Notes under the pieces: model-generated
What the model was told of the DNA's origin: nothing
The model's database searches: none
What the model saw: the letters and a program-made list of their open reading frames with translations, nothing else
Source of the DNA: Bacteroidia bacterium
GTDB taxonomy: Bacteria > Bacteroidota > Bacteroidia > Palsa-965
Reading direction: 5' to 3'
NCBI GenBank assembly: GCA_038237845.1
Contig: JBBRYH010000002.1
Location: 51,384 to 115,383 of the forward strand
Length of the DNA: 64,000 bases
In this document: positions 254-15,615 of the stretch, one piece after another
How the letters are laid out: each line of letters opens with the position of its first letter
How positions within the stretch are numbered: position 1 is the first letter of the stretch
Program-made: the position numbers and the translations under genes

Positions 254-283
254 TCGTATTTTCTAATGTGTATTCTGAAATGT

Positions 284-1639
284 TTAGGGATTTATAAATC
301 CAGCAAGTTCTTTTGCCTGTTGACGTAATTCACGAAGGGCAGTTGTTTCCCAAAGTGCGGATTTCCGCATTGGACCGATACACCACAATCCATTTTCCAA
401 ATTGCCTGAAGCATTTACAATCTTACCTTCCGCGGTGCAATTAATTCCAAGACCAAGTTCATCAGAAGTAACTTTACCTTGCTCCATTAAATTTTTTATA
501 ATTGGAAATTTTACTTTTCTATAATTCGATTCAGGGCCTGTACAATTAATTATTTTTTTAAATGTTCCAACCCTACTCTCATTCTCAAATTGATATTCAA
601 TTTCAATTCCATCTTTTGCAATTTTTGCTTTCGTAATGGATCCTTTGCCGATTTCAATTTGCCCCTCTTTTATTAGTTCATTTAAAACATTAAAAGATGC
701 ATTCGGAATACGATGTCTAGCAATTTCCCAAAAAGGTCGTAATCGTTTTAAAAAATATTTTCGCTCTTCAAGATTCCACTCTACCCAGATCCTTTGCGTT
801 AAAGGTCGTAGTCCATCAATTATAGAAGGCCACGGAATTTCCTTATTATTTTTTATAATTCCGCGAATCCAAAACCAAGTATCTCGAGGATGTAAATGTC
901 CCGGGTATTCAAGTTCAAATGGTTTTGAGGAAAGATCATGTGGCAATGGTAATCTACCTCTTCTCGAAATTAACTTCACTTTCCCTTGAAAGCCTCTCAT
1001 TTTTAATCCCAATACGACATCCACTGCTGTGAGTCCAGTGCCAACCAACAAAATATTTTCATCACCACTGATATTACTATAAATACGATCTAGCCAAGGC
1101 ATTGAAAAGTATCTTGGATCATTTTTTACGGGATGCCCATCTTCAAATAAATCTGCTGGTGGGAAATTCCCTAATGCTAAAATTACATGATCAGCACTTA
1201 ACAAAACTCCTGACTCTAAAGTAACCTGAAATCCGTCTTTGCTTTCTGTTAATAAAATCGCTTCATCAATTCGTATTTGCAAACGACCTTTATGTTGATG
1301 ATGAAAAAGTTCAAGATTTTCAATAATGTAATCGCCGTAAATTTTTCTTGGAACAAATGAATTTTTATTTATTTCTGGCAAAAGGTGATTATATCTAAAT
1401 TGATTTTCAAGAAGCCAATCTAAAAAATGTAATGGCTTTTCTTCGAACAGACTCATTCCACCAGCTACAACATTCAATGGTTGATGTGTAAAGTCATGAT
1501 GATATGCGACTCCACGGCCCAACTTTTCCGGATTACATTCCAGAAGAATAATTTCTGTTTCGGACGATTGTTGCAATAAATTCATAGCAACAAGAGTTCC
1601 TGATAAACCTCCTCCTACAATGACCACTTTTTTATTCAT
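284..1639 (-). CDS. FAD/NAD(P)-binding oxidoreductase (YdhS-like family)
   Basis: N-terminal GGGLSG Rossmann motif, GRGVAY, second dinucleotide motif GTGLTAVD, INCTGP, C-terminal LWETTA..ELR.QA. Confidence 0.85.
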   Translation of the reverse strand: MNKKVVIVGGGLSGTLVAMNLLQQSSETEIILLECNPEKLGRGVAYHHDFTHQPLNVVAGGMSLFEEKPLHFLDWLLENQFRYNHLLPEINKNSFVPRKIYGDYIIENLELFHHQHKGRLQIRIDEAILLTESKDGFQVTLESGVLLSADHVILALGNFPPADLFEDGHPVKNDPRYFSMPWLDRIYSNISGDENILLVGTGLTAVDVVLGLKMRGFQGKVKLISRRGRLPLPHDLSSKPFELEYPGHLHPRDTWFWIRGIIKNNKEIPWPSIIDGLRPLTQRIWVEWNLEERKYFLKRLRPFWEIARHRIPNASFNVLNELIKEGQIEIGKGSITKAKIAKDGIEIEYQFENESRVGTFKKIINCTGPESNYRKVKFPIIKNLMEQGKVTSDELGLGINCTAEGKIVNASGNLENGLWCIGPMRKSALWETTALRELRQQAKELAGFINP

Positions 1640-1658
1640 AAATTTTTATGAATTGATA

Positions 1659-2183
1659 CTATTTTGAAATTTCTTTCTTTTTGATTCCAGACAAAGCCAC
1701 TTTGAGTCGAAAGTTTTTTGCCATAGCATCGAAAGTTACAATGACAAAATTTTCTCCAACGAATTTTTCAATGTTAGCAGTAAAAGCTTTGAATTCACTT
1801 AATTTAAATTCTATTCGGTCTCCAATTTTTAATTCTTGCTCATCCACATCATCCAAAATAAATCCATGTTCAACAAAATATTTCAATCCCTCCATTTCCT
1901 CTTCTCTTATAATTGCTGGCTGGCCATTAAATCGCACATAATTTAATACCCCATTTTCATAACGAGGCTTATCCATTTCCTCCTTAGCAAGAAAAACAAA
2001 AACATATCCACTAATCAAGGGAGATTCAACTTTTTTTTTTCGGTCGCTCCATTGGCTCACTTTTTTTACGATCGGCAAATAACACTCAATGCCAGTCTCT
2101 TTAAATCGCTGACAAATTCTCTTTTCGTGCCTCACATTAACATAAAGCGCGAACCAATTTTTTATATTTTTATTCGTGACCAT
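1659..2183 (-). CDS. upxY: UpxY family transcription antiterminator (NusG paralog)
   Basis: WFALYV...EK, ECYLP, QWSDRKKKVESPLISGYVFV NGN domain and KOW-like C-terminus; lies upstream of polysaccharide genes. Confidence 0.92.
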   Translation of the reverse strand: MVTNKNIKNWFALYVNVRHEKRICQRFKETGIECYLPIVKKVSQWSDRKKKVESPLISGYVFVFLAKEEMDKPRYENGVLNYVRFNGQPAIIREEEMEGLKYFVEHGFILDDVDEQELKIGDRIEFKLSEFKAFTANIEKFVGENFVIVTFDAMAKNFRLKVALSGIKKKEISK

Positions 2184-2184
2184 T

Positions 2185-2231
2185 TACAGCTTCGCCACCT
2201 CAGTCACATTTGTAAATGCCCGGCCAGTGGA
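2185..2231 (-). promoter_or_regulatory. candidate ops-like pause / UpxY recruitment element
   Basis: Minus strand reads CCACTGGCCGGGCATTTACAAATGTGACTGAGGTGGCGAAGCTGTAA-ATG: a GC-rich hairpin followed by a GCGAAGC mini-hairpin 5 nt before the upxY start. Confidence 0.55.
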
Positions 2232-2249
2232 AATTATTTTTATTAAATA

Positions 2250-2780
2250 CTATTTGCTCCAGAGTAACAGAGGATGCATTCCAGGCTCCTTTATTTTCTC
2301 CAATTCAAATTCATCACTTGTATAATGTACGTATCGAATTTTTTTGTGAATCTTCTTTTCGGCTTTTTCAATCAGTCCAATCAAAAATGTTTTATCAATC
2401 TCACCTACTAAAACCAAATCAATAATATCAGTATTCTGTCCTTTCGCTAATTTCCCAACGAGATAAACTTTTTTAAGATCTCCCATACGCTGGAGAATAT
2501 AGTCTATCACATGATCAAGCCCCATGAGCTTCATGACAATACTATTGATGTCATTAAAAAGCGGATGTTCTGCGTTGGCTTTAAATACTTTTTTATTCCC
2601 ATCAAGATGAGAATTAATAAAACCGGCTTTTTCGAACTTATTAAGTTCTAAACGAATTGCATTTGTGGATTCTCCAAACTCTTCTTCCAGCCCACGGAGA
2701 TAGGCAGTAGCTGAACTGTTGAGAAAAAATTTCAACAATAGCTTGATACGCGTTTTTGATGAAATTAAGGTTTCTATCAA
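2250..2780 (-). CDS. ArsR-like winged-helix regulator with C-terminal nucleotidyltransferase-like domain
   Basis: LISSKTRIKLLLKFF, YLRGL..EFGESTNAIRLELN (HTH); C-terminal VYLVGKLAKGQNTDIIDLVLVG resembles the G-S..D-x-D NTase motif. TTG start. Confidence 0.75.
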   Translation of the reverse strand: MIETLISSKTRIKLLLKFFLNSSATAYLRGLEEEFGESTNAIRLELNKFEKAGFINSHLDGNKKVFKANAEHPLFNDINSIVMKLMGLDHVIDYILQRMGDLKKVYLVGKLAKGQNTDIIDLVLVGEIDKTFLIGLIEKAEKKIHKKIRYVHYTSDEFELEKIKEPGMHPLLLWSK

Positions 2781-2784
2781 CTTC

Positions 2785-2808
2785 GAGTAGTTTATCTACT
2801 CAAAAATA
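2785..2808 (-). promoter_or_regulatory. palindromic operator GAGTAG-N5-CTACTC abutting a TAnnTTTG -7 promoter element
   Basis: Perfect 6-bp arms at 2785-2790 and 2796-2801. The minus-strand TATTTTTG lies at 2801-2808. The palindrome ends 4 nt before the start codon of the wHTH gene. Confidence 0.6.
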
Positions 2809-2960
2809 GATTTTTATTTTAACAAAAAAAACTGTTTTGGGATAAAACTTTCTGCTTTCCAAATGGAGTAAAAACTATCTATAAATACGCTTCAAAGGAT
2901 CAAAAACCGAATTTTTAAAAAGTTAACTTTATTGGACTTTTTCTGAGTTTTATTAACATA

Positions 2961-2991
2961 AATGGGCCAAAACAAACAGTTTTAGCCCATT
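2961..2991 (-). terminator. stem-loop / probable terminator after wzc
   Basis: Minus strand AATGGGCTAAAAC-TGTTT-GTTTTGGCCCATT forms a 13-bp stem with one G-U pair. Confidence 0.6.
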
Positions 2992-3011
2992 ATTGAATGT
3001 TTTTTACGATT

Positions 3012-5441
3012 CTAATTCTTACCCGGCGAGGATTTAGGTTTGGCTGAGGAGCCATAACCGCCACCATATCCACCACCACCATAACTGCCATAACCGCCAC
3101 CATAGGAACCATATCCTTTATAATTATATCCATATCGGTTATAATAGTATTTGGACTTCCGACGTTTGACACCATTTAAAATAAATCCAAAGTGAACGTC
3201 AGGATTCAAAGAAGCAATTTCATGAGCATTCTGAAGTGATTCTCTAGAAGCAAATCGGGTATTCAATACAAAAATCAAAATACTTGCTTCTCTTACAAGA
3301 ACGAAGGCATCAGAAATCAAACCAATAGGAGGAGTGTCAATGATTACATATTCATAGTGTGCTTTACAATATTCAAAAATATCCTTCATTGCTTTTGAAG
3401 TGACAAGTTCAGAAGGATTTGGAGGAAGTGGTCCTGAAAGAATAGTGTCTAGATTTTCAATCTGAGTTTTTACAATTACATCTTCTATCTTGTCTTTACC
3501 TATTGCAACAGTCGAAATTCCTTTTCCACTAGGAAGATTCAAGCCTTTTTGAACCCTTGGTTTATGCAAATCCAACTCGAGTAGGACTACTTTCTTTCCT
3601 GTTTTCGCAATAGCAGCGGAAAGGTTCAATGAACAGAAAGTTTTCCCTTCACCTGGATTATTAGAAGTAAGGACAATTACTTTCGCCTTTTCGTCGGTAC
3701 TCATATATTGCAAATTCGTCCGAACTGTCCGGAATGATTCTGCCATAGGCGATTTTGGATCGTGTTCAACTGCTAAAGAAAGTTCTTTCATCATCTTATC
3801 GAAAACAATATCACCAAGTATCGGCAACTCGGTTGAACTTTTTAACTCTTCAAAAGTTTCAATTCGATGGAACAATATGACACGAACAAAAACAAGAATA
3901 AATGCAAGAATTAATCCAACACCCAAAAAGGTATAAATGATTTTCTTTTCATCAGGACTTACAACTCCTACATTTCTTGGACGTTCAATTATTTTGACGT
4001 CAGGAATAATGGCCGCTTTTGAAATTATCGCATTCGCACGTTTTTGTAATAGGAAAACAAACATATCCTGAAATGCTTTTTGACGACGCATAATATTTAA
4101 TAAACCGCGTTGTTTTAAAGGAAGCATTTGCAATTGGTCGTTGTAATATCCAATTTCTGTATTTACGCCTTCAATTTTTTCATTGATTGCTTTTCGAGAG
4201 TTCTTTATATAAATTAAGATATCTCTTTTGGTAGAATCGATCTGATTTCTAAGATTTTTTACGGCCTGATTTTGAGAGGTCCCGATTAGCAATACGGAAG
4301 ATAAAGCCTGGCGTTTATTATATAAATCATCCAATGTCGAAACTTGAAATTGATCATTCTCCAGAATATAAGCCGAAGGCGGAAGGAAAGTAGGATCTCT
4401 ATCTGCAATTACATAATTCTCCAAATCATCAAGTGATTTCTGCTGCAACTCAAGCGCCTTTTTATTTCCTTCATAACCACTGTATCGATCAAAATATTGG
4501 CCTGCCTGTCGATCTAAATCAATGACAGAATTTTTTTCCCGAAATTGTTGAAGGGTATCTTCAATATTATCTAGAATATTACTTACGTCTTCTAACTGTC
4601 GATCAATAAAAAACAAGGTGCTTTTATTGATTTCCAATTTAGAAATAAGTGAATTCTCCATATATACAGAAGCAAGCGTATCCAGAAACTTTGTGCTTCT
4701 TTCAGGCAAAACATCCTGAGAAGTTAATTTTAAAACATTTGTATAATCAGGATTCTCAACTGAAAGATGATCTAAAAATAATTTTGTGAGGTCTGCCAAT
4801 CGATGAGGCTGGATAAGGTAGTTGGCCATATTCGGACCAGTAATTGCACTTCCAATTACGTTACTCTTTTTAGACACCAGAATTCTCATTTGAGGATTTT
4901 CCAATTCTTCATTAAATTTTCCGTCGACTTTAGTTTCTTTTCCATCAAAAAGGAAAGTCAACTCATAATCATTTTTCGAAACAATTCTGAACTTCATCTT
5001 TTGTTCATAGAGGGAATTGTTCAGGACAAATATTTTTATGGAAAACGGCACACCGGAGTAAACCTCTGTTGTTCTAATACGTCCAACGAGAAAGTAAGAA
5101 ACGTCAAAGTCAAGTTTTAAAAGTGCTTTTTCAATTAAATCCTGAGATCTTAAAACCCGTATTTCATTCGAATTATCAACAAATGTTTTATATGAATTTC
5201 CATAATATTTTGTGTTTTCAGAAATTACACTTCCAGGATTATAGTCATCATTCGACTCTAACAACAAAGAACTACTGGAAGCATATATCTTATCCAATTT
5301 ATAGACATAAAATACGCCGATTGTATATGCAATTGCTCCAAACAATACCACAATCCACCAGTTCTTACGAACTATTGGAAGGATTTTTGCGAGGTCGTTC
5401 AGAGAAAAACCACCTTTGGGTGCTACAACTTTGTTCTTCAT
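3012..5441 (-). CDS. wzc: polysaccharide co-polymerase / BY-kinase (Wzc/GumC family)
   Basis: Two TM segments flanking a coiled-coil periplasmic region, Walker A SNNPGEGKT, A' ELDLHKP, Walker B VIIDTPP, and a C-terminal Tyr/Gly cluster. Confidence 0.93.
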   Translation of the reverse strand: MKNKVVAPKGGFSLNDLAKILPIVRKNWWIVVLFGAIAYTIGVFYVYKLDKIYASSSSLLLESNDDYNPGSVISENTKYYGNSYKTFVDNSNEIRVLRSQDLIEKALLKLDFDVSYFLVGRIRTTEVYSGVPFSIKIFVLNNSLYEQKMKFRIVSKNDYELTFLFDGKETKVDGKFNEELENPQMRILVSKKSNVIGSAITGPNMANYLIQPHRLADLTKLFLDHLSVENPDYTNVLKLTSQDVLPERSTKFLDTLASVYMENSLISKLEINKSTLFFIDRQLEDVSNILDNIEDTLQQFREKNSVIDLDRQAGQYFDRYSGYEGNKKALELQQKSLDDLENYVIADRDPTFLPPSAYILENDQFQVSTLDDLYNKRQALSSVLLIGTSQNQAVKNLRNQIDSTKRDILIYIKNSRKAINEKIEGVNTEIGYYNDQLQMLPLKQRGLLNIMRRQKAFQDMFVFLLQKRANAIISKAAIIPDVKIIERPRNVGVVSPDEKKIIYTFLGVGLILAFILVFVRVILFHRIETFEELKSSTELPILGDIVFDKMMKELSLAVEHDPKSPMAESFRTVRTNLQYMSTDEKAKVIVLTSNNPGEGKTFCSLNLSAAIAKTGKKVVLLELDLHKPRVQKGLNLPSGKGISTVAIGKDKIEDVIVKTQIENLDTILSGPLPPNPSELVTSKAMKDIFEYCKAHYEYVIIDTPPIGLISDAFVLVREASILIFVLNTRFASRESLQNAHEIASLNPDVHFGFILNGVKRRKSKYYYNRYGYNYKGYGSYGGGYGSYGGGGYGGGYGSSAKPKSSPGKN

Positions 5442-5848
5442 TTCGAAGGGCTAAATTACCAATAAAGAAAGACAGTTAAGTATATTTTTTTGGAATGTAT
5501 TGCCATCAAAACCTCCAATACTTAAGTTCCGACAAAATTGAACGAATTATAAATGCAAAAGTTGGTGATTTTATTCATTCGGACATAATACATGCGAAAA
5601 GCACTTTTTGATCATTTTGCGACATAAAAACTTACAATTTTTGAATTTATGTAGACAGTTTTCATCATTTACATCGTCAAATCTAGTCGGCTATTTACCA
5701 AATTTGAAAATGTTCATATCTATCCAAAAACAAAACGAACAATTCTTAATAATTCTCGTAAAATATATTGTTTAATTACCCCCTTTGCCCCACAATTTTG
5801 AGATATAATAATCTGACCTAAACCTATGGTAATTCCCTATTTATGGGT

Positions 5849-5856
5849 TATCTTTG
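5849..5856 (+). promoter_or_regulatory. Bacteroidota primary-sigma -7 element (TATCTTTG)
   Basis: Exact TAnnTTTG about 70 nt upstream of the ATG at 5927. Confidence 0.55.
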
Positions 5857-5926
5857 AAGTCTAACCATTAACGCCAGCATTGTAAATCAATTTGGAGATT
5901 TGCATTCACATCAAAAAGTTTTGACC

Positions 5927-8900
5927 ATGAAAAAAGCTACATATATTTTCGTAACCTGCCTCTTCATTTCATTGAGTTCGCGTGCAGGTGTTTTCACTTC
6001 TGTCGTTTCTGGCAATTACGGTTCATCAGGTACCTGGACTTTTACTGGTGCTGACGCGGATGGAATTCCGGATTCCGATGATGATGTTACCATTGCTGGT
6101 CCGCATACTATAACGCTTACAGCAGCTTCGAATGCAAAAACACTTGTAATTAATCCTACAGGAACCATTAATTTAAACAATACCCAGATGTCAGTTTGGG
6201 GAAGTTTTACAAATAATGGCAGTTCGACAGGTTTAGGAAGTTGGATTTTTCGTGGCTTTGGCACTTATTCTGGAAATCCAATTAATAATACAGGTGCGAT
6301 TTTCTTTTTCTCCAGTTATATTATTGCTCCAGGAGTAAATCTTTTTAAGAATGGAAGTATTACGGTTTCAAGTTTTTCCATTGTATCTAATAGAGGTTCT
6401 GTTAATCTTTTTGCAAATGGTCAAATGAACATTAATGCGAATGGAAAATGGATTAATGCTGCAGGTTCCAATTTGACATTATCTTTTAACCCTGTAATTA
6501 CCGGCATCCTTGATGCATCTGCAAACGCAAATACAGTAACCTATTCTACTGCTGGTTATAACCAGGTGCAAGCAATCAATTGTACCTATTACAATTTGAA
6601 TATTAACTCATCAGTTGTTGCAACAAAATCACTTACGGCGGCAATAAATATTTTGAATAACCTTACAATTGCACCATTAGTTACCTTGAATTGTGCAAAT
6701 AATAATATTAATCTTGGTGGGAATTGGAATAATGCTGCAAATACAAACTGTATGAATCTGGCTTCGGTCAATTTCACTGGCAGTGGAATTCAGACAATAA
6801 CTCGTACTGCTACAGAACAATTTAAGGATGTAAACTTAATGGGCACTGGTAGCGTAAAGTTAATGACCGATGTAAATATTTCTGGAACCAGTACACTAAC
6901 AAGCGGTACGCTTGATCCTAATACTTTTGTTTATCATCAAAAAGGTGTTTCCTGGTTAGGTAACGGTGGTGCATGTAATACAGCAAGTGCCGGAATTGTA
7001 ATGTTTGATGGTTTGCAAAATCAAACTTTAGGTGGAACCGTTGGAACAACATTTGGAAACCTGACCATCAACAATCCTGGATTTACTGTTACTTGTATAA
7101 CAACACAAACAGGTAGTGCTACTACTATTTTGAAAGCAGGGACATTTGATCCGGGCACAGTGGTGTTCCATCAAAAAGGAGCATTGTGGAATGCAAACGG
7201 AGGAACATTAAGTAACGTCTCAAGTGGTTCAATTACTTTCGATGGTACGGTTCCACAGTCAATCGGAGGAACTGTTGGTACATCATTTGGAAATATCATT
7301 ATCAATAGCACATCTACTGTTTCGCTTGCAAGAATTTTGGATGTAGCACAAACCTTAACCCTCCAAAGTGGGACGCTAGATGTTTCAGCAAGTTTTTTTG
7401 ATATTAATCTGTCAGGAAATTTTGTAAATAACGGAGGAACTTTAAATGCACAGAGTGGAACTGTTTATTTCACGGATATCGCACTTGCTGCACAAACTGT
7501 TAGTGGTACTGGTTCCACAAACTTTTTCAATATCACTTCTAATAATGTTACAGGTGGTGTTACAGTTACCTCTTCCATTATGAGAATTTCTGGTGTTTTA
7601 CAAATCAACACAATGAATTTTGGAACTAGTGGAACTGGAAAAATAAATTTAATAGCACCAAACGCAACTTCAACAGGAAAAATCGGTCCAGTACCTGCAG
7701 CTTCTTCACTTACAGGAACAGGTTGGAGCGTATTTTCATATATAAATGGTCCAGCAACTGCATACTGGCAATATTTGGGAACACCGATAAGTAATACGAC
7801 ACTTGCAGATTGGGATACGGATACTCGTTTTTATATGTCGGGTGTTGGTGGAAACGACGGAAATGCATGTTGTCCTATTTTCTATTCTGTTAGAACTTAT
7901 AGTCCAACAACAAATACATATACGAACGTTACTACTACAACAACAAGTCTTATAAAGGGTCGTGGTTATATGGTTTGGATGGCTGATAACTTACAATCAT
8001 TAACTGGCCCACTTCAATTTGATACTAAGGGCACACCGAATTTTGGAACTGTTAATCGTGCAGTTACTGCTGGCGGACCTGGTGCAGGATATAATTTGGT
8101 TAGTAATCCTTATGCATGTCCAATTACATATGCTAATGTTGTTGCTGCTTCCTCAGCTTCTTTAAATGCAAATTTTTTAATTCTCCAGGAGAACGGAAGT
8201 TATGTAACTAATCCAAATAGCGGAACAATTGCAGCTGCTCAAGGCTTCATGTGTATTGCTGGTGCAAACGGCAACATTACTTTTACGGAGAGTTGTAAAA
8301 ATGTTTTTGGTACTCCAAATATCATTAGACAAGCACAACCAACTGATTTCATTAGAATAGCTTCTGGTAACGGAACAAATGGACTTGGTGGAGAAACAGA
8401 AATTAAATTTACTTCTGATGCTCATAATGGAAAAGATTTCAATTCAGATATGCCTTTTCTAGCTAGTCCATATGATGATGCAACTAATATTTATACAACT
8501 GACAACGATGGACAGAACCTTTTATTAAATGCATTAGATGCTAATCAGGATGTTCTTGAAATTCCAATGTCTGTTTTATCAGGTACTCCTGGCAGTCAGC
8601 TTTTATCTTTCAAAGGAATCAATGGATTATCTGCCTATAGTTGTGCAACTTTGATTGATGTTACCTCTGGCGAAAAAACAGATTTACGTGCACATGATAC
8701 TTATTCCTTTAATGCAAATGGAGCTGGCGAAAAACATGATTTCATTTTACGCTTTGAGCGCGATGGAAATTGTCCTTTGAATGAACAAGGCATTGCAGCT
8801 TCTTTAGATGCTTCAACCAGAGTGTTTACAAACAATGGAAACATTCTTGTACAATTTGGATTTGAAGATCTAACTGATGTCGTGGTTACTGTTTTAAATG

Positions 8901-9043
8901 TTGCGGGACAGGAAGTATCAATTCCAAAAGGAATGACAGTTTCAAATGAAACTATTGCACTTGACAGTCCTGGTGCGCATGGTATTTATCTTGTTAAGAT
9001 TGCAAAAGGTGATGAAATTGTCACAAAGAAAATTTACTACTGA
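5927..9043 (+). CDS. large T9SS-secreted adhesin-like protein with beta-helix-like repeats
   Basis: Signal peptide MKKATYIFVTCLFISLSSRA from ATG 5927; G/T/N/S-rich ~80-aa repeats (GTLDP....HQKG..W..NGG...FDG...Q..GGTVGT.FGN); C-terminal CTD ending GIYLVKI......TKKIYY. Confidence 0.85.
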   Translation: MKKATYIFVTCLFISLSSRAGVFTSVVSGNYGSSGTWTFTGADADGIPDSDDDVTIAGPHTITLTAASNAKTLVINPTGTINLNNTQMSVWGSFTNNGSSTGLGSWIFRGFGTYSGNPINNTGAIFFFSSYIIAPGVNLFKNGSITVSSFSIVSNRGSVNLFANGQMNINANGKWINAAGSNLTLSFNPVITGILDASANANTVTYSTAGYNQVQAINCTYYNLNINSSVVATKSLTAAINILNNLTIAPLVTLNCANNNINLGGNWNNAANTNCMNLASVNFTGSGIQTITRTATEQFKDVNLMGTGSVKLMTDVNISGTSTLTSGTLDPNTFVYHQKGVSWLGNGGACNTASAGIVMFDGLQNQTLGGTVGTTFGNLTINNPGFTVTCITTQTGSATTILKAGTFDPGTVVFHQKGALWNANGGTLSNVSSGSITFDGTVPQSIGGTVGTSFGNIIINSTSTVSLARILDVAQTLTLQSGTLDVSASFFDINLSGNFVNNGGTLNAQSGTVYFTDIALAAQTVSGTGSTNFFNITSNNVTGGVTVTSSIMRISGVLQINTMNFGTSGTGKINLIAPNATSTGKIGPVPAASSLTGTGWSVFSYINGPATAYWQYLGTPISNTTLADWDTDTRFYMSGVGGNDGNACCPIFYSVRTYSPTTNTYTNVTTTTTSLIKGRGYMVWMADNLQSLTGPLQFDTKGTPNFGTVNRAVTAGGPGAGYNLVSNPYACPITYANVVAASSASLNANFLILQENGSYVTNPNSGTIAAAQGFMCIAGANGNITFTESCKNVFGTPNIIRQAQPTDFIRIASGNGTNGLGGETEIKFTSDAHNGKDFNSDMPFLASPYDDATNIYTTDNDGQNLLLNALDANQDVLEIPMSVLSGTPGSQLLSFKGINGLSAYSCATLIDVTSGEKTDLRAHDTYSFNANGAGEKHDFILRFERDGNCPLNEQGIAASLDASTRVFTNNGNILVQFGFEDLTDVVVTVLNVAGQEVSIPKGMTVSNETIALDSPGAHGIYLVKIAKGDEIVTKKIYY

Positions 9044-9057
9044 AATTGAATCTGCAA

Positions 9058-9288
9058 ATGAAATTCAATAAATATTTTCTCCTTACAGCAACAGTTTTGC
9101 TAATTGTGATTAGCATTCAAACCGGTCATGCACAACCGCCACCTCCTCCTCCACCAGTTGGAGGTCCGCCATGTTGGCCTCCTCCATGTGTTCCTGTTAA
9201 TTCCGGGATCATTTATGTAGTAGGTGCTGCCATTTTATTTGGTGCTTACGCATTGATCAAAACTCTCCGAGCACGCACAGCTGAATGA
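9058..9288 (+). CDS. 76-aa Pro-rich micro-protein with C-terminal exosortase sorting signal (PID-CTERM-like)
   Basis: Signal peptide ending GHA-Q, then QPPPPPPPVGGPPCWPPPC, motif VPVNSG, hydrophobic helix IIYVVGAAILFGAYALI and basic tail KTLRAR; immediately upstream of an exosortase. Confidence 0.8.
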   Translation: MKFNKYFLLTATVLLIVISIQTGHAQPPPPPPPVGGPPCWPPPCVPVNSGIIYVVGAAILFGAYALIKTLRARTAE

Positions 9289-9295
9289 TTCTTTG

Positions 9296-9832
9296 ATGAA
9301 GCTTTCATCACCTGAACGTCGTATCCTTCTTTTTGTAATCCTTTTTCTGGGTATTTATTTATCCTGGATGATGTTGTATGAATGGCTACTTCATCCTTGG
9401 GGAAAACTAGATACACTTGTAATTAACGACTCTTCTCAATGGGCAATTTTCCTACTCGAGAAAATGAATTTCCAAACGTTTACAGGTGATAACGCAACCA
9501 TTCGAACTCTTGGCATCGATGGAACACACGGGCTTTGGATTGGAGATCCCTGTAATGGAATCTCACTCTTCGCTTTATTTTTCAGTTTTATCCTAGCCTA
9601 TCCAGGAAGCTGGAAACATAAATTATGGTTTATTCCGGTTGGAATTACTGCAATTCACACCATGAATATTATTCGCATAACCAGTTTATGTATTATTGTT
9701 TTAAAAAAACCGAATTGGCTTGAATTTAATCATACTTATCTCTGGCAGATATTTATGTATGGATTTCTATTCCTGCTTTGGTTAATTTGGATTAAGAAAT
9801 TTTCTACCAAAGGAAACGTTCCTAAGTCATGA
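9296..9832 (+). CDS. exosortase/archaeosortase family protein (XrtF/XrtX-like)
   Basis: Multi-TM protein with the Cys-Arg-His triad in canonical contexts: IGDPCNG, NIIRI, FNHTY. Confidence 0.88.
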   Translation: MKLSSPERRILLFVILFLGIYLSWMMLYEWLLHPWGKLDTLVINDSSQWAIFLLEKMNFQTFTGDNATIRTLGIDGTHGLWIGDPCNGISLFALFFSFILAYPGSWKHKLWFIPVGITAIHTMNIIRITSLCIIVLKKPNWLEFNHTYLWQIFMYGFLFLLWLIWIKKFSTKGNVPKS

Positions 9833-10302
9833 CAAAAGAAATCAGAAGCAAAATCTTCATCGCAATTCTTCTTGTGGCTTACATTGCGACTGGTTTCTTC
9901 AGGGAATTTCTTTTCCTCAATATAAACGAACAAAGCAGAGTTACCTTTTATCACGATATTGATTCGCATGTTGCTTCATCCTTGCAATGGCTATCCTCTT
10001 TGAGTTATCCGACTCTTTATTATGCGAAATGGCCTTTAACACTATTTTTCACAACATTTTTTGGATTTTTAGCCGCTACAATTATTCGATTATGGTTCAA
10101 CGATAAAAATCTTGTAAAAATCACATGGCTTGCCTATGCGATTACATTTGGAGCAGGCTTACTCTTTTATCTTGCAGGTTCATTATCAGGAAACCGTGAA
10201 ACCACTTACGATTTGGCTAGATTTTTAGCTGGCTTAACCGAAACTCCTGCCCTATTGGTAATGTTATTGGCTTCTTTTCTGGCTATGCGTCGTAAGGCAT
10301 AA
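9829..10302 (+). CDS. exosortase-associated membrane protein
   Basis: About 4 TM helices, FFREFLF motif; ATGA overlap with the exosortase stop suggests translational coupling. Confidence 0.7.
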   Translation: MTKEIRSKIFIAILLVAYIATGFFREFLFLNINEQSRVTFYHDIDSHVASSLQWLSSLSYPTLYYAKWPLTLFFTTFFGFLAATIIRLWFNDKNLVKITWLAYAITFGAGLLFYLAGSLSGNRETTYDLARFLAGLTETPALLVMLLASFLAMRRKA

Positions 10303-10350
10303 TGGCCGAAGATTTTCTTACTTTTGCCCACGTTATTCATCTATACAAAT

Positions 10351-11625
10351 ATGAAAAAGGACACCGTAATATTCGATTTAATTAAAAAAGAACTGCATCG
10401 CCAGACCAGCGGAATTGAATTAATCGCATCTGAAAATTTTGTCAGTGCACAAGTGATGCAAGCAATGGGATCGGTGCTTACCAACAAATACGCTGAAGGG
10501 CTACCAGGAAAAAGATATTATGGTGGATGTGAAATTGTCGATCAAACAGAACAGTTAGCTATTGATCGTGCAAAATCATTGTTTAATGCAGAATGGGTAA
10601 ACGTACAACCGCATTCAGGTGCTCAAGCCAATGCTGCTGTAATGCTAGCTGTTTTAAAACCAGGAGATAAAATTCTCGGATTTGATTTATCACACGGTGG
10701 CCATTTAACGCATGGTTCTCCAGTAAATTTTTCAGGTAAACTTTATTCTCCCTCTTTTTATGGAGTAGAAAGAGAAACCGGATTAATTAATTATGATAAC
10801 GTAGAGAAGACTGCGAAAAAAGAAAAACCTAAATTAATTATTTGTGGTGCTTCTGCATATTCACGCGATTGGGATTATGTACGTTTAAGAAAAATCGCAG
10901 ATAGTGTTGGCGCATTATTGATGGCTGATATTTCTCATCCAGCAGGTTTGATTGCACGAGGTATTATGAATGACCCGATGCCGCATTGTCATATTGTTAC
11001 AACTACAACACATAAAACTTTACGTGGACCACGTGGAGGAATGATATTAATGGGAAAAGATTTCGAAAATCCATGGGGGTTAAAAACACCAAAGGGAGAA
11101 ATCAAAACAATGACAGCATTATTAGATGCGGCTGTTTTCCCAGGAACACAAGGCGGACCTTTAGAACATGTCATTGCTGCTAAAGCTGTTGCATTTGAAG
11201 AAGCACTTTCAGAAAGTTTCTTGAAATATGCAGTTCAAGTAGTAAAGAATGCTTCTGTCATGGCAGATGCATTTATGGATCGCGGATACAATGTAATTTC
11301 TGGAGGTACTGAAAATCATTGTATGTTAATTGATCTCAGAACAAAAAATATTACTGGTAAACAGGCTGAAAATGCTTTGGTAAAAGCAGATATAACTGTA
11401 AATAAAAACATGGTTCCTTTTGATGACAAATCCCCATTTGTTACTTCAGGAATTCGTGTTGGAACACCCGCAATTACTACCCGTGGAATTAAAGAAAAAC
11501 AAATTCCAAAAATCGTTGATTTGATTGATGAGGTAGTGATGAATCACGAGAATGAAACAAAAATTCTTGCTGTTAAAAAAGAGGTGAATAAAATTATGAA
11601 GGCGTATAAATTATTTGCCTATTAG
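10351..11625 (+). CDS. glyA: serine hydroxymethyltransferase
   Basis: [43 protein letters not shown]. Start set to ATG 10351 because the track's TTG lies in the TACTTTTG promoter (10319-10326). Confidence 0.98.
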
Positions 11626-11643
11626 TTATCTTTCAATAAAACT

Positions 11644-11679
11644 AAAAGAGGCTTGGAATTAATTTTTTAAGCCTTTTTT
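11644..11679. terminator. bidirectional intrinsic terminator
   Basis: AAAAGAGGCTT...AAGCCTTTTTT between convergent genes. Confidence 0.7.
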
Positions 11680-12319
11680 ATTTGGGTACAATTTCAATCG
11701 GCATCAATTTACCTTTGTTGGCATCAAATGCAGTCACGGTAATGATAGCAAAACTCGCGACGCGTTTCGTGTTAGGATGTTCTTGTTTACCACCTAATCG
11801 TTTTGCTTTTCTTGCCGGTTGCCATTTTGAAAGTTTACCTAAATAATAATAACAAACATTTTCTAATATTTCACCTGTAGAATCCTGATGTAGAATTGGA
11901 ATCTTATCACATGTTGCAAAACCATTTTTATCTACCGAAAAAATAAATCTTGCACTATCAGACCGAACAGAATCAGCCCAGGCAAATGAATAATTTGTTT
12001 CGCTGATGTATCCAATCCAATCAAAACCATTATCAGAATTCAATCCTTCTCGAATTGGAACTGGTGCAAAGGCATTTCTTACAGAATCTGTAAATACAAT
12101 TTGTTGTGTAGAAATCTCCGTTATTTGTTTTCGATACGATTTATTATCCCGATAAATAACTGTCATTTGAACGCTGAAGGAAGCAGAGACAGGAGCACGG
12201 TGAACAACAATTACTCCTGCAGGAATAGAATCGCGACTTTGCGAAAACACTTTTAATGTAAACAAACAAAGGAAAAACAAAAAAGGAAGTTTAAGTTTCA
12301 CTCCGCAGTTGAAACGCAT
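11678..12319 (-). CDS. exported hypothetical protein, TonB-C-like features
   Basis: Signal peptide ending VFS-Q; FIFSVDKNG and KWQPA are reminiscent of TonB C-terminal domains. Confidence 0.55.
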   Translation of the reverse strand: MRFNCGVKLKLPFLFFLCLFTLKVFSQSRDSIPAGVIVVHRAPVSASFSVQMTVIYRDNKSYRKQITEISTQQIVFTDSVRNAFAPVPIREGLNSDNGFDWIGYISETNYSFAWADSVRSDSARFIFSVDKNGFATCDKIPILHQDSTGEILENVCYYYLGKLSKWQPARKAKRLGGKQEHPNTKRVASFAIITVTAFDANKGKLMPIEIVPK

Positions 12320-12357
12320 TCACAAAATTAAGATTAAGATTGAATATTAACGATTAA

Positions 12358-13086
12358 CTATTTTTCAGAAGGAACATTAGTATTTTTTTCCATTGATTTT
12401 TTTTGCTGCTCATCCAATGGTGGTGAATTGAGTGGATAATCAAAAGGCGCATATCTCGAATTTTTTTGTTCTACAAGCAATGGATAAGAAGAGACAATTA
12501 CAAATACTTCACAATAATAACTTTCTAGAATTAGTGGAGATTTTCTGAATAATTTTTTCTTTTCATAATATCCTCCTGCATCACCCCAAATAGAAATCTG
12601 CTGACTTGTACGAGTTAATTCTTTCACCAACTCATCTGACATTTTAAATGTGTATTCTGGATCATCTAATACACGCTTTATTCTGCCTTTTGAATCGATC
12701 CACATTCCGATAACCAATGTATCAACTCGAGGAGTATCATTTGCGTTAAATTTAAAATTCATGTTTTCGACAAACAATTTTGAAAGCAATTGTGTTTCTC
12801 TCGGATAAACACGTTTAAGTTTCGGTGAATATACTGTGGAATCAAAAACCGGCACATTGTCTACTTCAATAATATTTCCCGCAATCGGATCAGTAACAGT
12901 CTTATTTTCTCTTACCATACTCACCTTCGAGAGATAATATTTATATTCTACTTTGACATAGGGAATAATATTGGATTTACGGACGTAAATAATTCCTTGA
13001 GGAATCTCCGCTACTTTTGGGATCGTATCCTGCGCAATTACAGAAATTACAATACAACTAAAAAATAAAACAATTAAGGTCTTCAT
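12358..13086 (-). CDS. exported hypothetical protein, probable paralog of 11678..12319
   Basis: Signal peptide ending VIA-Q; IPQGIIYVRK compares with IPAGVIVVHR, and MWIDSKG with FSVDKNG. Confidence 0.55.
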   Translation of the reverse strand: MKTLIVLFFSCIVISVIAQDTIPKVAEIPQGIIYVRKSNIIPYVKVEYKYYLSKVSMVRENKTVTDPIAGNIIEVDNVPVFDSTVYSPKLKRVYPRETQLLSKLFVENMNFKFNANDTPRVDTLVIGMWIDSKGRIKRVLDDPEYTFKMSDELVKELTRTSQQISIWGDAGGYYEKKKLFRKSPLILESYYCEVFVIVSSYPLLVEQKNSRYAPFDYPLNSPPLDEQQKKSMEKNTNVPSEK

Positions 13087-13101
13087 CGCCGCAAGAATTT
13101 A

Positions 13102-14760
13102 TTAAAGATCCTGCCCAATTTTGAAAAATGCTTTCATCTCTTCAGCGGTTTTGAATTCCTTCTCAACGGGTTTCAAACTAACTGTCCCCGAACCAACAGA
13201 AGGAAGTTTTGATAATTGATCGTTATCAGCATAAAATAATTTACCGTCTTTAACAGCCCAAATAATGTTAGAGGATTTTGGATTAAAATGAAAGCCTGCT
13301 AAAGATTGCGCATAATGATAATTGTATAAAGCTTTTTTATTTCTGTCAACCAAAAACAAATTCGCAAATTGTTCAGTATAGGTCTTACCATCGTCTTTAA
13401 AGTTTAAAACAATAATACCTCCTTGCGGATAAGAAGACGGGCAATCAGTATTATAAATACCAAATTCAGAAACTTCAAATACATGAATCAGATTTACCAA
13501 TTTATTTGCAGTTGCCTGATTTGTGGGATTACCCTGAACGTAATTTGCCGTAATAATTTGTCGACTCTTGAAATCCAAATAAGCATTATACTCACCCAAC
13601 TTTTTAGAATAATCAGCGAATTCCTTATTGTATTTCTCTAACGCAATTGCATAAGACTTTTCATCAAGTGCAGGATATACATCCAACATTATCACTTCAT
13701 TCCCTTTTGCCAATGCCAATTTATATTTATTCAAACCATTTCCATAGGATAATTTTATAGATTCCCAGGTTACATTGTACCATTTTACATCAAACTTCTG
13801 GGTCTTTTCATCCACCATAAAAATCATATTCTCATATGCCTGCATCTCAGGAAATTCTTTTGGATCAATTGCAACAGTAAAACGATTTTTCGTTAAATCA
13901 ACTTTCACTGGTTTGATTGGTTCACTTGGAGGACTTGGTATATGTTCTTCCCAAAATGGATTTACATTAGGGTTTGTAATGATGGAAGAATCTTTTTTCA
14001 CAGGAGTTAGCTTATCTTTTCCCAAATAATTCCAATTGCCTGCAAGCGTATCAAACCTGTATAGATTATATTTTACTCCTGATTCTTTCGAAGCAAACTC
14101 AACTTTCACTTTTTTATCTTTGGCTAGATAAACAGTTTTACCATTAATAAACCCAGTAATTTCCATCATGCCTGCAGATTCGAATTGATACGTCTGTCCC
14201 GCAGAATCGTATTGCATCGGAATTCCCGAAAGGAAAAAATCTACTTGATTACGAAATTCTCTATATTGAATATTTACATTTCCAGAAACAACATTTCCAT
14301 TTTCATCAACAAATGCATTTGCAGGGAATGTTACTTTTGTTCCATTGAGATGAGTAAATGTCCCTCCGCTTGTCGAACTGACATTATAAGAATGATTTTT
14401 AATAATTAGACCTTTTATTGGAGGAGCAACTCTTCTTTTTGAGCTAACTATTTGTGAATTACTAGAATTAATAGGATTGGTTGAATCGGAAATTAAAACT
14501 GTATTCGTTTGAACATTAGGAGATGTTGATTTTTTTGAATTGTTTGTATTAGGAAGTCCCTTGTAAATAAAAACTCCACATACAACTACTACAACAGTAG
14601 CCATCGATCCAAGAAACCAGCCAGATTTCCAGAATGGTTTTTTAATCACTGTTCCTGGTGCAGCATTATACTGCTTTAGTAATTCGTCGAAATTACGACC
14701 TGACAAAATCTCTTCCGAAGAAGGTTTTTGGCGATCGATATTGACTTTATATTTTTTCAT
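13102..14760 (-). CDS. single-pass membrane protein, probable anti-sigma factor with large extracytoplasmic domain
   Basis: Short cytoplasmic N-terminus (~45 aa), one TM helix, GTKVTFPANAFVD..G..VSG.V.IQYREF domain; directly follows the ECF sigma gene. Confidence 0.65.
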   Translation of the reverse strand: MKKYKVNIDRQKPSSEEILSGRNFDELLKQYNAAPGTVIKKPFWKSGWFLGSMATVVVVVCGVFIYKGLPNTNNSKKSTSPNVQTNTVLISDSTNPINSSNSQIVSSKRRVAPPIKGLIIKNHSYNVSSTSGGTFTHLNGTKVTFPANAFVDENGNVVSGNVNIQYREFRNQVDFFLSGIPMQYDSAGQTYQFESAGMMEITGFINGKTVYLAKDKKVKVEFASKESGVKYNLYRFDTLAGNWNYLGKDKLTPVKKDSSIITNPNVNPFWEEHIPSPPSEPIKPVKVDLTKNRFTVAIDPKEFPEMQAYENMIFMVDEKTQKFDVKWYNVTWESIKLSYGNGLNKYKLALAKGNEVIMLDVYPALDEKSYAIALEKYNKEFADYSKKLGEYNAYLDFKSRQIITANYVQGNPTNQATANKLVNLIHVFEVSEFGIYNTDCPSSYPQGGIIVLNFKDDGKTYTEQFANLFLVDRNKKALYNYHYAQSLAGFHFNPKSSNIIWAVKDGKLFYADNDQLSKLPSVGSGTVSLKPVEKEFKTAEEMKAFFKIGQDL

Positions 14761-14782
14761 GGCGATAGAATGCAAATAAATA

Positions 14783-15424
14783 TTATCCGTTTGTTCCTGT
14801 TGCTTTATTAAGATTTTTCAAACGCACTTTTTCCAAAAGAATTTTTTTGAGTTTTTCTAAAATGCGATATGTTTTCACTTTAGCATTATTTTCTGTGATC
14901 CCGAAAATGTCAGCAATTTCTTTGAATGCACGTTTTTCAAAAAAGCGCATCTCAACAAATTGCATATCGTCCTCCTCCAAATCAGTTACCGACTCTTTCA
15001 ATATTTCAATATAAGGTTCGTATTTATCCTCCACCATTTCCTCCACCATTTCGCCTAATCCAGCGGTATCCATATTCACTGTCCGCTTAGTTTGTTCCTT
15101 TCTGAAAGCAGTATACACTTCACTTTTCGCAATCCTGTATAACCAAGAAGCGAATGGAACACCTTTGAATTCATACTTATGCAAATTTGTCATTGCCTTT
15201 AAAAAAACCTGTGAACAAACATCATGTGCCAAATCTTTATCGTCAACGCGCTGCCAAACAAACAGGAATATCCTTTCGTAATATTTATTATACAAACCTT
15301 TAAACTGCTCAGGATCTTTCCTGGCACTTTCCACCAGAACCTGCTCATTTAGCATATCCTCATTGGTGGCATGATACTTCGAGATACCCTCCATAGTCGG
15401 GGGGTTAAGTGTTACTGACCGCAT
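14783..15424 (-). CDS. ECF RNA polymerase sigma-70 factor
   Basis: Region 2 (D....VFLKA...L..Y....VPFASWLYRIA) and region 4 (FKEIADIFGITENNAKVKTYR). Alternative start at 15394. Confidence 0.93.
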   Translation of the reverse strand: MRSVTLNPPTMEGISKYHATNEDMLNEQVLVESARKDPEQFKGLYNKYYERIFLFVWQRVDDKDLAHDVCSQVFLKAMTNLHKYEFKGVPFASWLYRIAKSEVYTAFRKEQTKRTVNMDTAGLGEMVEEMVEDKYEPYIEILKESVTDLEEDDMQFVEMRFFEKRAFKEIADIFGITENNAKVKTYRILEKLKKILLEKVRLKNLNKATGTNG

Positions 15425-15566
15425 CGCAACTTACTTAATTTACTAGTATAACGGTCTTCAATTGGAAAGATACACCACTTCGCAAAGAAATTGGTTATTA
15501 GTGATTGTTGTTTAAAGATTATGCATTTTCACTTTAACAAAAACTTGACTATCAGTTCTTTAAATG

Positions 15567-15600
15567 AAAAAAGGCGACTCATTTCTGAATCGCCTTTTTT
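15567..15600 (-). terminator. intrinsic terminator
   Basis: AAAAAAGGCGA...TCGCCTTTTTT, 15 nt after the stop of the 1479-aa gene. Confidence 0.8.
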
Positions 15601-15615
15601 AAAATTCGGTCTTAT

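What the first reader, a model, noticed from the sequence alone, without database searches (positions are those of the whole stretch)
5927..10302. Dedicated exosortase cassette: T9SS adhesin, Pro-rich micro-substrate, exosortase and partner membrane protein
Seen: four co-oriented, tightly packed genes (gaps of 14 and 7 nt, then a 4-nt overlap) behind one TATCTTTG promoter element. They encode a 1038-aa T9SS-CTD protein, a 76-aa protein with a tripartite C-terminal sorting signal, a Cys/Arg/His exosortase and a 4-TM protein. Known: exosortases cleave C-terminal motif-TM-basic signals, and the layout resembles the bioinformatically defined Bacteroidota XrtF and XrtX/PID-CTERM systems, which I do not know to be characterised experimentally. 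Inference: two C-terminal sorting machineries (T9SS and exosortase) are coupled in one operon. The large protein lacks an exosortase signal, so the sortase may exist only to mature a tiny peptide that anchors, chaperones or regulates the T9SS cargo.
Basis: partly seen in the sequence, partly recalled or inferred. Interest (0 to 1): 0.85.

Follow-up and report, generated by a model that had tools for sequence, protein, structure and literature searches.

The report
XrtX exosortase cassette with tiny substrate
This is a real four-gene cassette of a catalogued but untested protein-sorting system (exosortase XrtX), whose only apparent substrate is a tiny proline-rich peptide and which sits beside a gliding-adhesin-like surface protein.

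Summary
Four co-oriented genes lie at 5927-10302 with gaps of 14 and 7 nt and a 4-nt overlap.

- **Exosortase:** it scores 174.3 bits on NCBIfam exosortase X (cut-off 170). Cys86, Arg127 and His146 are invariant in 37 homologues.
- **4-TM protein:** it matches the XrtX-associated family (E 3.7e-14, below cut-off). It is predicted to bind XrtX (score 0.67, best control 0.01).
- **76-aa protein:** it is a diverged PID-CTERM micro-protein. Its motif is PVN instead of PID, so the curated model misses it. Its orthologues next to XrtX in relatives do match. It is the only such tail found, and XrtX the only exosortase, in this genome.
- **1038-aa protein:** it is a type A T9SS cargo. Its C-terminal ~400 residues match the Flavobacterium adhesins RemA and RemZ at profile level.
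- **Neighbourhood:** the order wzc(-)|adhesin-micro-xrtX-partner recurs widely in Bacteroidia MAGs. The adhesin is adjacent in 42 of 67 informative loci, so the link is conserved but not universal.

Verdict: a new member of the XrtX/PID-CTERM kind, which is known only from bioinformatics. Coupling to T9SS cargo rests on neighbourhood alone, and no covalent or physical link is shown. Moderate interest, chiefly as a minimal model for exosortase chemistry.

The parts
3012..5441 (-). Wzc-like polysaccharide co-polymerase and tyrosine kinase, transcribed divergently. A conserved neighbour of the cassette.
   Evidence: Pfam Wzz 8.7e-08, AAA_31 1.2e-14 and GNVR 5.8e-04. A homologue lies on the opposite strand upstream in 51 of 67 informative loci.
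5849..5856 (+). TATCTTTG, a match to the Bacteroidota -7 promoter consensus TAnnTTTG (the consensus is recalled, not from a call).
   Evidence: It lies 70 nt upstream of the ATG. The motif class is not enriched in the window (65 found, 89 expected). TAACTTTG is present in 4 of 4 close relatives aligned.
5927..9043 (+). 1038-aa T9SS type A cargo. It has a signal peptide, a beta-solenoid at about 22-620, two beta-sandwich domains at about 650-945, and a CTD at 964-1037. The C-terminal module is RemA/RemZ-like.
   Evidence: TIGR04183 25.5 bits against cut-off 23. The AF2 model has mean pLDDT 87.5. The family profile matches RemZ at E 2.4e-27 and RemA at E 3.8e-27. 29 of 29 homologues carry the CTD.
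9058..9288 (+). 76-aa micro-protein, a diverged PID-CTERM substrate. Parts: signal peptide (about aa 1-24), Pro-rich stretch, CWPPPC-VPVNSG (aa 39-50, nt 9172-9207), TM (aa 51-67), basic tail (aa 68-76).
   Evidence: NF046080 gives no match. Orthologues next to XrtX do match it. It is conserved upstream of xrtX in 68 of 80 loci by phmmer, plus 6 intact and one broken copy (L070) found by eye.
9296..9832 (+). Exosortase X (XrtX), 178 aa. Catalytic candidates are Cys86 (nt 9551-9553), Arg127 (9674-9676) and His146 (9731-9733).
   Evidence: NF046081 174.3 bits against cut-off 170. The three residues are invariant in 37 sequences. It is the only exosortase in the genome.
9829..10302 (+). XrtX-associated 4-TM membrane protein. 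It overlaps xrtX by 4 nt.
   Evidence: NF046082 E 3.7e-14, 52.7 bits, below the cut-off of 75. Four hydrophobic segments. Adjacent in 67 of 80 loci. Predicted complex with XrtX scores 0.67 against a best control of 0.01.

Best explanation
The locus is an XrtX-type exosortase cassette.

**Shown by sequence and comparison.**
- XrtX is a short polytopic membrane protein with invariant Cys, Arg and His.
- It is encoded with its family-specific 4-TM partner and, immediately upstream, a PID-CTERM-type micro-protein.
- The micro-protein consists of little more than a signal peptide, about 20 Pro-rich residues with a CWPPPC pair, the sorting motif (here PVN instead of PID), one TM helix and a basic tail.

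**Inferred from what is established for exosortases, archaeosortase and rhombosortase.**
- The micro-protein is exported by Sec and held in the inner membrane by its C-terminal helix.
- The XrtX-partner complex cleaves it at or near the PVN motif.
- The new C-terminus of the roughly 21-23-residue peptide is passed to an unknown acceptor, either a lipid or a sugar.

**Inferred from the conserved neighbourhood only.** This product acts in the same cell-surface pathway as the RemA/RemZ-like T9SS adhesin encoded upstream and the Wzc polysaccharide export machinery encoded divergently.
For: **Family assignment.**
- XrtX scores 174.3 bits against cut-off 170. The partner has E 3.7e-14.
- Cys86, Arg127 and His146 are invariant in 37 sequences.

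**The micro-protein as substrate.**
- It is the only ORF in the 3.94-Mb genome (100% complete) with a P[VILA][DNE]-TM-basic tail that plausibly belongs to a gene. The pattern returned 2 of 28554 tails; the other is a 49-aa ORF with no related motif. A looser scan listed 42 TM-basic tails, none with a related motif.
- There is one exosortase in the genome.
- In relatives, PID_CTERM matches fall directly beside XrtX, for example in G031, G038, G020 and G011.
- Database homologues of the micro-protein with PxD pass the PID_CTERM cut-off in 6 of 8 scanned. The two PVN forms score 14.8 and 12.2 bits.
- In 69 of 69 micro-protein/XrtX pairs, a Cys-x(3-6)-Cys precedes P[IVLA][DN]. It is CWPPPC in 51 of them.

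**The partner.** The complex prediction for XrtX and the partner scores 0.67 against a best control of 0.01.
- That mark was reached by 58 of 80 solved complexes and 2 of 110 mismatched pairs.
- The runs agree in at least 90% of contacts and the partner pLDDT is at least 80.
- My own alignments were used, so these counts hold only roughly.
- No solved relative of XrtX exists by sequence (0 PDB hits at E<=1), so a pass from memory is unlikely.
- The interface includes XrtX residues 84-102 and 144-169, which flank Cys86 and His146.

**Neighbourhood.**
- The adhesin link survives rearrangements. In L057, L059 and L060 it lies beyond wzc. In L074 and L077 it is inverted downstream. In G028, G031, G033, G036 and G038 a related gene lies within 1-8 kb of xrtX.

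**Genetics of the nearest studied cousin.** xrtF and its partner are both needed for surface colonisation and biofilm in F. johnsoniae (PMC10936215, passages).
Against: - The curated PID_CTERM model does not match the window's micro-protein at E<=10.
- The partner is below its curated cut-off (52.7 against 75 bits).
- No cleavage, adduct or expression data exist. No RNA run holds the locus.
- The adhesin is absent from the immediate neighbourhood in 25 of 67 informative loci.
- XrtX homologues in another class have neither the micro-protein nor the adhesin next door.
- The genome has at least 150 T9SS CTD proteins, so adjacency in a single genome means little on its own.
- The 80 loci are the best 80 of 175 hits and are related to each other, so the counts overstate independence. 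At 60% XrtX identity there are 12 clusters, 9 of them informative, and 5 of those have an adjacent adhesin.
Confidence: 0.7

Rival explanations
1. The T9SS adhesin, Wzc and glyA are neighbours of the mic-xrtX-partner core only through inherited gene order in one Bacteroidia lineage. There is no functional coupling between T9SS cargo and the exosortase.
For: - glyA, an unrelated housekeeping gene, is just as conserved downstream (44 ORF hits in 80 loci).
- 25 of 67 informative loci lack an adjacent adhesin.
- XrtX in another class lacks it.
- T9SS cargo genes are very common in this genome (at least 150).
Against: - The link persists through rearrangements and across families.
- Among the 41 relatives, I cross-tabulated by hand. 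27 of the 28 genomes with XrtX at 124 bits or more have an adhesin-family hit at E<=1e-15. Only 2 of the other 12 do. One of those two, and the single exception among the 28, sit at contig ends. Related genomes are not independent, and G013 (unpublished) is among those counted.
Confidence: 0.3
2. The micro-protein is not a cleaved substrate. It is a small stable membrane subunit or regulator of the XrtX-partner complex, or a pseudo-substrate that gates it.
For: - It carries almost no cargo, only about 20 residues between the signal peptide and the motif.
- It is always encoded singly next to the enzyme in this genus.
- The D-to-N change in the motif is tolerated without any XrtX column unique to that group.
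Against: - It has the full tripartite architecture of sortase-type signals.
- Its relatives match a curated sorting-domain model.
- Other genomes carry 3-5 PID-CTERM proteins, some 209-222 aa long, scattered away from xrtX. That fits substrates better than subunits.
Confidence: 0.12
3. The processed peptide is covalently or tightly joined to the T9SS adhesin as its anchor, chaperone or regulator, so that two sorting systems act on one surface structure.
For: - Only the conserved adjacency.
- The near-invariant Cys pair in cassette-linked micro-proteins, which could form disulfides.
Against: - No fused form was found among longer proteins (0 of 212 candidates at E<=0.01, which is weak evidence).
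- The CWPPPC micro-protein also occurs in loci without an adjacent adhesin (L061-L063, L079, L081, L086).
- The adhesin family alignment shows no invariant Cys.
Confidence: 0.1

Closest known systems
XrtX / PID-CTERM / XrtX-associated protein (NCBIfam NF046081, NF046080, NF046082)
   Same: - The exosortase passes the XrtX cut-off.
- The partner matches NF046082 at E 3.7e-14.
- The micro-protein is orthologous to proteins that pass the PID_CTERM cut-off.
- The mic-xrtX-partner gene order is the same.
   Different: - The motif is PVN-S-G rather than P-I/V-D-G-G, and the tail is AYALIKTLRAR rather than GGKK. The curated model therefore finds nothing here.
- This variant is shared by the 5 closest loci, L032-L036.
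- I could not read the curators' text for these models, so I cannot say whether the adhesin and Wzc linkage is already noted there.
XrtF system of Flavobacterium johnsoniae (Fjoh_1448 and Fjoh_1449)
   Same: - It is a short Bacteroidota exosortase with a downstream partner membrane protein.
- The window's enzyme also exceeds the XrtF cut-off (95.9 against 90 bits).
- XrtF and its partner have surface-colonisation and biofilm phenotypes (PMC10936215, passages).
   Different: - XrtX outscores XrtF.
- The partner does not match the XrtF-associated family at E<=0.1.
- XrtF targets are reported as unknown (PMC12188702, passage), whereas here a candidate substrate is encoded next door.
PEP-CTERM / XrtA (EpsH) exosortase systems
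   Same: - Tripartite C-terminal signal and a Cys/Arg/His polytopic enzyme.
- Genomic association with polysaccharide export genes, here Wzc (PMC12188702 and PMC7468200, passages).
   Different: - Those systems typically pair one enzyme with many larger, often glycosylation-prone substrates.
- Here there is one enzyme and one micro-peptide with almost no Ser or Thr.
- The enzyme covers only model positions 131-252 of the Pfam EpsH model.
RemA and RemZ, T9SS-secreted surface adhesins of F. johnsoniae (PDB 8gl6, 8gl8)
   Same: - The adhesin-family profile aligns over about 340-380 positions to the C-terminal 360-410 residues of RemA and RemZ, including the NLxGNPYxSxI block and the type A CTD (E 3.8e-27 and 2.4e-27).
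   Different: - The window sequence alone gives no PDB hit at E<=0.001.
- The N-terminal beta-solenoid is not matched significantly.
- No lectin domain was found in the window protein.
MYXO-CTERM / myxosortase
   Same: - A tripartite C-terminal tag with an invariant Cys just before the helix. There the Cys is required for cleavage and is proposed to be lipidated (PMC11980579, passages).
- The cassette micro-proteins have a near-invariant Cys pair in the same place.
   Different: - The processing enzyme is of a different family (CPBP, not exosortase).
- More distant PID-CTERM proteins lack the Cys pair.

Membership tests
XrtX exosortase (NF046081) | Score at or above the curated cut-off of 170 bits, and the best-scoring exosortase subfamily | tested here: met
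   174.3 bits. The next best is XrtF at 95.9.
XrtX exosortase (NF046081) | Conserved Cys, Arg and His of exosortases and archaeosortases | tested here: met
   C86, R127 and H146 are invariant in 37 sequences and in 8 sequences.
XrtX system | Adjacent XrtX-associated membrane protein (NF046082, cut-off 75 bits) | tested here: inconclusive
   52.7 bits, E 3.7e-14, below the cut-off. It is orthologous by position in 67 of 80 loci. It is predicted to bind XrtX (0.67 against 0.01).
PID-CTERM sorting domain (NF046080) | C-terminal match at or above 26 bits | tested here: not met
   No match at E<=10 in the protein or in the whole genome. Homologues with D in the motif pass in 6 of 8 scanned. PVN forms score 12-15 bits.
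PID-CTERM sorting domain (NF046080) | Tripartite architecture (motif, TM helix, basic tail) behind a signal peptide, encoded with XrtX | tested here: met
XrtF system | XrtF-associated protein (TIGR04127, accession recalled) next to the exosortase | tested here: not met
   The downstream protein matches only NF046082 and, weakly, CcmD at E<=0.1.
T9SS type A cargo | C-terminal type A sorting domain, an N-terminal signal peptide, and T9SS machinery in the genome | tested here: met
   TIGR04183 25.5 against 23 bits. Pfam is below gathering (18 against 27). An N-terminal hydrophobic segment spans residues 4-18. PorU scores 1298 bits in the genome.
RemA/RemZ-like adhesin | Homology to RemA/RemZ beyond the CTD; lectin domain; role in gliding | tested here: inconclusive
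   The C-terminal module matches at profile level (E about 1e-27). There is no single-sequence hit and no lectin domain. A role in gliding cannot be tested here.
Wzc (PCP-2a) neighbour | Wzz domain, GNVR, a P-loop tyrosine kinase domain and a Tyr-rich tail | tested here: met
   The Tyr/Gly-rich tail is visible in the translation.

The most novel reading that the evidence does not exclude
XrtX and its partner convert the micro-protein into a lipid- or sugar-linked peptide of about 22 residues, capped with a polyproline stretch and a Cys loop. That peptide is the dedicated tether or receptor for the RemA-like T9SS adhesin, or for the Wzc-exported polysaccharide that the adhesin binds. An inner-membrane exosortase and the outer-membrane T9SS would then jointly build one surface structure.
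Probability: 0.12. Interest if true: 0.8.

Novelty: new member of a known kind. Interest (0 to 1): 0.5.

Why it matters
**A minimal model for exosortase chemistry.** Exosortases are widespread, yet where they cleave and what they attach is still described as unknown in the passages I read (PMC7468200, PMC11980579). This cassette has one enzyme, one predicted partner subunit and one substrate of about 50 mature residues whose product would be about 22 residues. That is about as simple a test case as one could want for intact-mass spectrometry of the reaction.

**An annotation gap.** The curated PID-CTERM model misses the PVN variant and scores most of this genus below its cut-off. These substrates are therefore labelled 'hypothetical' in public records.

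**A testable link.** The recurrent neighbourhood with a RemA/RemZ-like T9SS adhesin and Wzc gives a concrete hypothesis connecting exosortase function to surface adhesion in Bacteroidota. It parallels the XrtF biofilm phenotype in F. johnsoniae.

Tried and rejected
- **Fold of the large protein.** Foldseek of the whole model against the PDB gave no useful match (best E 2.7e-4, TM 0.06). The ESM Atlas returned only hypothetical Bacteroidota clusters. Pfam on 29 homologues added only sporadic Laminin_G_3 (3), G8 (2) and PKD (1).
- **Enzyme-motif covariation.** No XrtX alignment column is unique to the six PVN carriers.
- **Fused forms of the micro-protein.** None of 212 longer candidates scored E<=0.01. 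This is weak evidence.
- **Expression.** No RNA holder was listed for the locus. I did not lay reads, because only DNA contig runs were offered.
- **Promoter and terminator scans.** The sigma-70 and terminator scans were at chance level (20 against 22.3 expected, 3 against 4.2 expected). TAnnTTTG is not enriched.
- **The long wzc-adhesin spacer.** No Rfam family matched in 1-16000. The 485-nt spacer has no repeats and no second copy in the genome.
- **Not a real gene?** I considered and rejected the idea that the micro-ORF is not a gene. It is conserved in position and motif in 74 of 80 loci.
- **An XrtF system?** I considered and rejected this. The partner family does not match, and XrtX outscores XrtF.
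- **Sources I could not see.** The curators' comments for NF046080-82, all supplementary files, and the 2012 RemA paper. The link of remA with wza, wzc and remC is recalled from memory, not read.
- **Unpublished genome.** G013 is one of the 41 relatives counted, and it is locus L017.

Full report
**Observation.**
- The window holds four co-oriented ORFs: 5927-9043 (1038 aa), 9058-9288 (76 aa), 9296-9832 (178 aa) and 9829-10302 (157 aa). The gaps are 14 and 7 nt and the overlap is 4 nt.
- TATCTTTG lies at 5849-5856, 70 nt before the first ATG. The class TAnnTTTG is not enriched in the window (65 found, 89 expected), so on its own it is only suggestive.
- The four closest relatives aligned all carry TAACTTTG just ahead of their start codon.
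- A sigma-70 and terminator scan of 5400-11800 was at chance level and shows no terminator-like site in the spacers between the four genes.

**The enzyme and its partner.**
- The 178-aa protein scores 174.3 bits on NCBIfam exosortase X (cut-off 170). It scores 95.9 on XrtF (cut-off 90) and lower on other subfamilies.
- Cys86, Arg127 and His146 are invariant in 37 aligned homologues.
- It is the only exosortase or archaeosortase match in the 3.94-Mb, 100%-complete genome.
- The 157-aa protein has four hydrophobic segments. It matches the XrtX-associated membrane protein family at E 3.7e-14, but at 52.7 bits, below the cut-off of 75.
- A complex prediction for the two, run with my own alignments of 37 rows each, scored 0.67 in its median run against a best control of 0.01.
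  - That mark was reached by 58 of 80 solved complexes and 2 of 110 mismatched pairs.
  - The runs agree in at least 90% of contacts, and the partner pLDDT is at least 80.
  - The counts hold only roughly with my own alignments.
  - The interface includes XrtX residues 84-102 and 144-169, next to Cys86 and His146, and the partner's last helix with its invariant Pro140.
  - The PDB holds no sequence relative of XrtX, so this pass is unlikely to be recall of a solved complex.
  - This supports binding but does not show it.

**The micro-protein.**
- Its layout is: a signal peptide (hydrophobic 7-25, with Gln after a GHA site), a run of Pro, CWPPPC, VPVNSG, a 17-residue hydrophobic helix, and KTLRARTAE.
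- The curated PID_CTERM model (NF046080, 25 positions) does not match it or anything else in the genome at E<=10.
- In relatives, however, PID_CTERM matches fall directly beside XrtX.
- Database homologues of the micro-protein that carry Asp in the motif pass the cut-off in 6 of 8 scanned. The two PVN forms score 14.8 and 12.2 bits.
- The window protein is therefore a diverged PID-CTERM protein. The D-to-N form is shared with the five closest loci (6 of 69 pairs; the other 63 have D).
- A genome-wide scan of 28554 stop-to-stop tails returned this ORF and one unrelated 49-aa ORF. A looser TM-plus-basic scan listed 42 tails, none with a related motif.
- In this genome the system is thus one enzyme with one substrate.
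- PID_CTERM hits above the cut-off in relatives sit in open frames of 33-222 codons, and 13 of 15 are under 100. Those I read are signal peptide plus Pro/Gly-rich filler plus tag.
- In all 69 cassette pairs, a Cys-x(3-6)-Cys precedes the motif, and it is CWPPPC in 51. More distant PID-CTERM proteins lack the Cys pair.
- No longer, fused form was found (weak evidence).
- Public sources name the homologues 'hypothetical protein'.

**The large protein.**
- It carries a type A T9SS CTD (TIGR04183 25.5 against 23 bits). Pfam is below gathering.
- The genome has PorU (1298 bits) and at least 150 CTD matches.
- An AlphaFold2 model built from 29 homologues has mean pLDDT 87.5. It shows a beta-solenoid (about 22-620), two beta-sandwich domains (about 650-945) and the CTD.
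- Whole-model Foldseek and the ESM Atlas gave nothing specific.
- A profile of the family matches the C-terminal 360-410 residues of the F. johnsoniae T9SS substrates RemZ and RemA (E 2.4e-27 and 3.8e-27). The match includes the NLxGNPYxSxI block. The single sequence gives no PDB hit.
- All 29 of 29 homologues have the CTD.
- RemA is described as a mobile surface adhesin and lectin of the gliding machinery (PMC8269157 and PMC12618676, passages). I recall, but could not read, that remA was studied together with wza, wzc and remC.

**Neighbourhood.**
- XrtX occurs in 34 of 41 relatives at E<=1e-5, and in 21 of them over the cut-off.
- In 80 public loci, all MAGs labelled Flavobacteriales or Bacteroidia (the best 80 of 175 hits):
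  - The micro-protein is directly upstream of xrtX in 68 by phmmer. Six more intact copies and one broken copy (L070) were found by eye. Three loci are cut at the contig end, and two have it inverted downstream.
  - The partner is adjacent in 67 and within the locus in 73.
  - Among the 67 loci with at least 3 kb upstream, the adhesin homologue is adjacent in 42 and within the locus in 49. Wzc is divergent upstream in 51.
- Single-linkage clusters give a fairer picture of independence. At 70% XrtX identity there are 40 clusters, 31 of them informative, 19 with an adjacent adhesin. At 60% there are 12 clusters, 9 informative, 5 with an adjacent adhesin.
- The link survives rearrangement (L057, L059, L060, L074, L077, L110).
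- In other families a related gene lies 1-8 kb from xrtX in G028, G031, G033, G036 and G038, but not in G027 or G030.
- In a phylum-wide sample, XrtX passes its cut-off in 52 of 301 genomes. In another class it sits in sugar-biosynthesis loci with neither the micro-protein nor the adhesin next door.

**Interpretation.**
- The classification as an XrtX/PID-CTERM cassette is secure.
- Cleavage of the micro-protein by the XrtX-partner complex, and transfer of the roughly 22-residue peptide to an unknown acceptor, is inferred by analogy. Exosortases are proposed to cleave near the motif and conjugate the new C-terminus to an unidentified compound (PMC7468200, passage). They are thought to act as transpeptidases (PMC11980579, passage).
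- Functional coupling to the RemA-like adhesin and to Wzc rests on the conserved neighbourhood only. It is plausible given the general association of exosortases with EPS, and given the XrtF biofilm and colonisation phenotype (PMC12188702 and PMC10936215, passages).
- The term PID-CTERM occurs in no paper of the library. The hits for 'XrtX' and 'exosortase X' whose titles and abstract starts I saw (20 of 24) do not concern this system. Two further searches on exosortases brought up no work on it.

**Verdict.** This is a real and well-conserved system. It is a new member of a kind that is known but experimentally untouched. It has a motif variant that escapes the curated model, and a recurrent link to T9SS cargo that is not described in the papers I could search. 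Interest is moderate.

Noticed in passing
window 5442-5926: The wzc-adhesin spacer is 485 nt here. In the four closest relatives it is roughly 60-100 nt. The extra sequence has no Rfam match, no repeats and no second copy in the genome.
   Followed up: partly
window 3012-3110 (- strand, C-terminus of Wzc): Wzc ends in a long Tyr/Gly-rich tail (YGSYGGGYGSYGGGGYGGGYG). Homologues in other loci have similar GYGYGYG tails.
   Followed up: no
window 1659-2780 (- strand): Downstream of wzc lie a 176-aa protein with no Pfam match and a NusG/UpxY-like protein (PF02357, 5.7e-17). The second suggests antitermination control of a polysaccharide locus.
   Followed up: no
window 11678-13086 (- strand): Two neighbouring secreted-looking proteins (213 and 242 aa) have no Pfam match. 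Similar pairs follow glyA in relatives L044 and L051.
   Followed up: no
L075, L092, L094, L100, L111: In this lineage xrtX and its partner gene are separated by about 6.5-7.7 kb. The micro-protein has a different Cys pair and motif (CGGPFPPC-P-I/V-P-L-D).
   Followed up: no
G000:C12:35632-38406: A second, 1616-codon paralogue of the adhesin (28% identity, E 5e-20) lies away from xrtX. Similar paralogues of about 1615 aa exist in several genomes of the genus.
   Followed up: no
L070 7618-7740; L077 7869-8528: Possible decay or assembly errors. In L070 the micro-protein frame lacks a start and a signal peptide. In L077 xrtX is split into 90- and 98-aa ORFs.
   Followed up: no
L123, L125-L127, L131 (another class of the phylum): XrtX homologues above the cut-off sit among sugar-nucleotide and transferase genes. 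Some are followed by a 157-172-aa membrane protein that my partner profile did not recognise. None has an adjacent PID-type micro-protein.
   Followed up: partly
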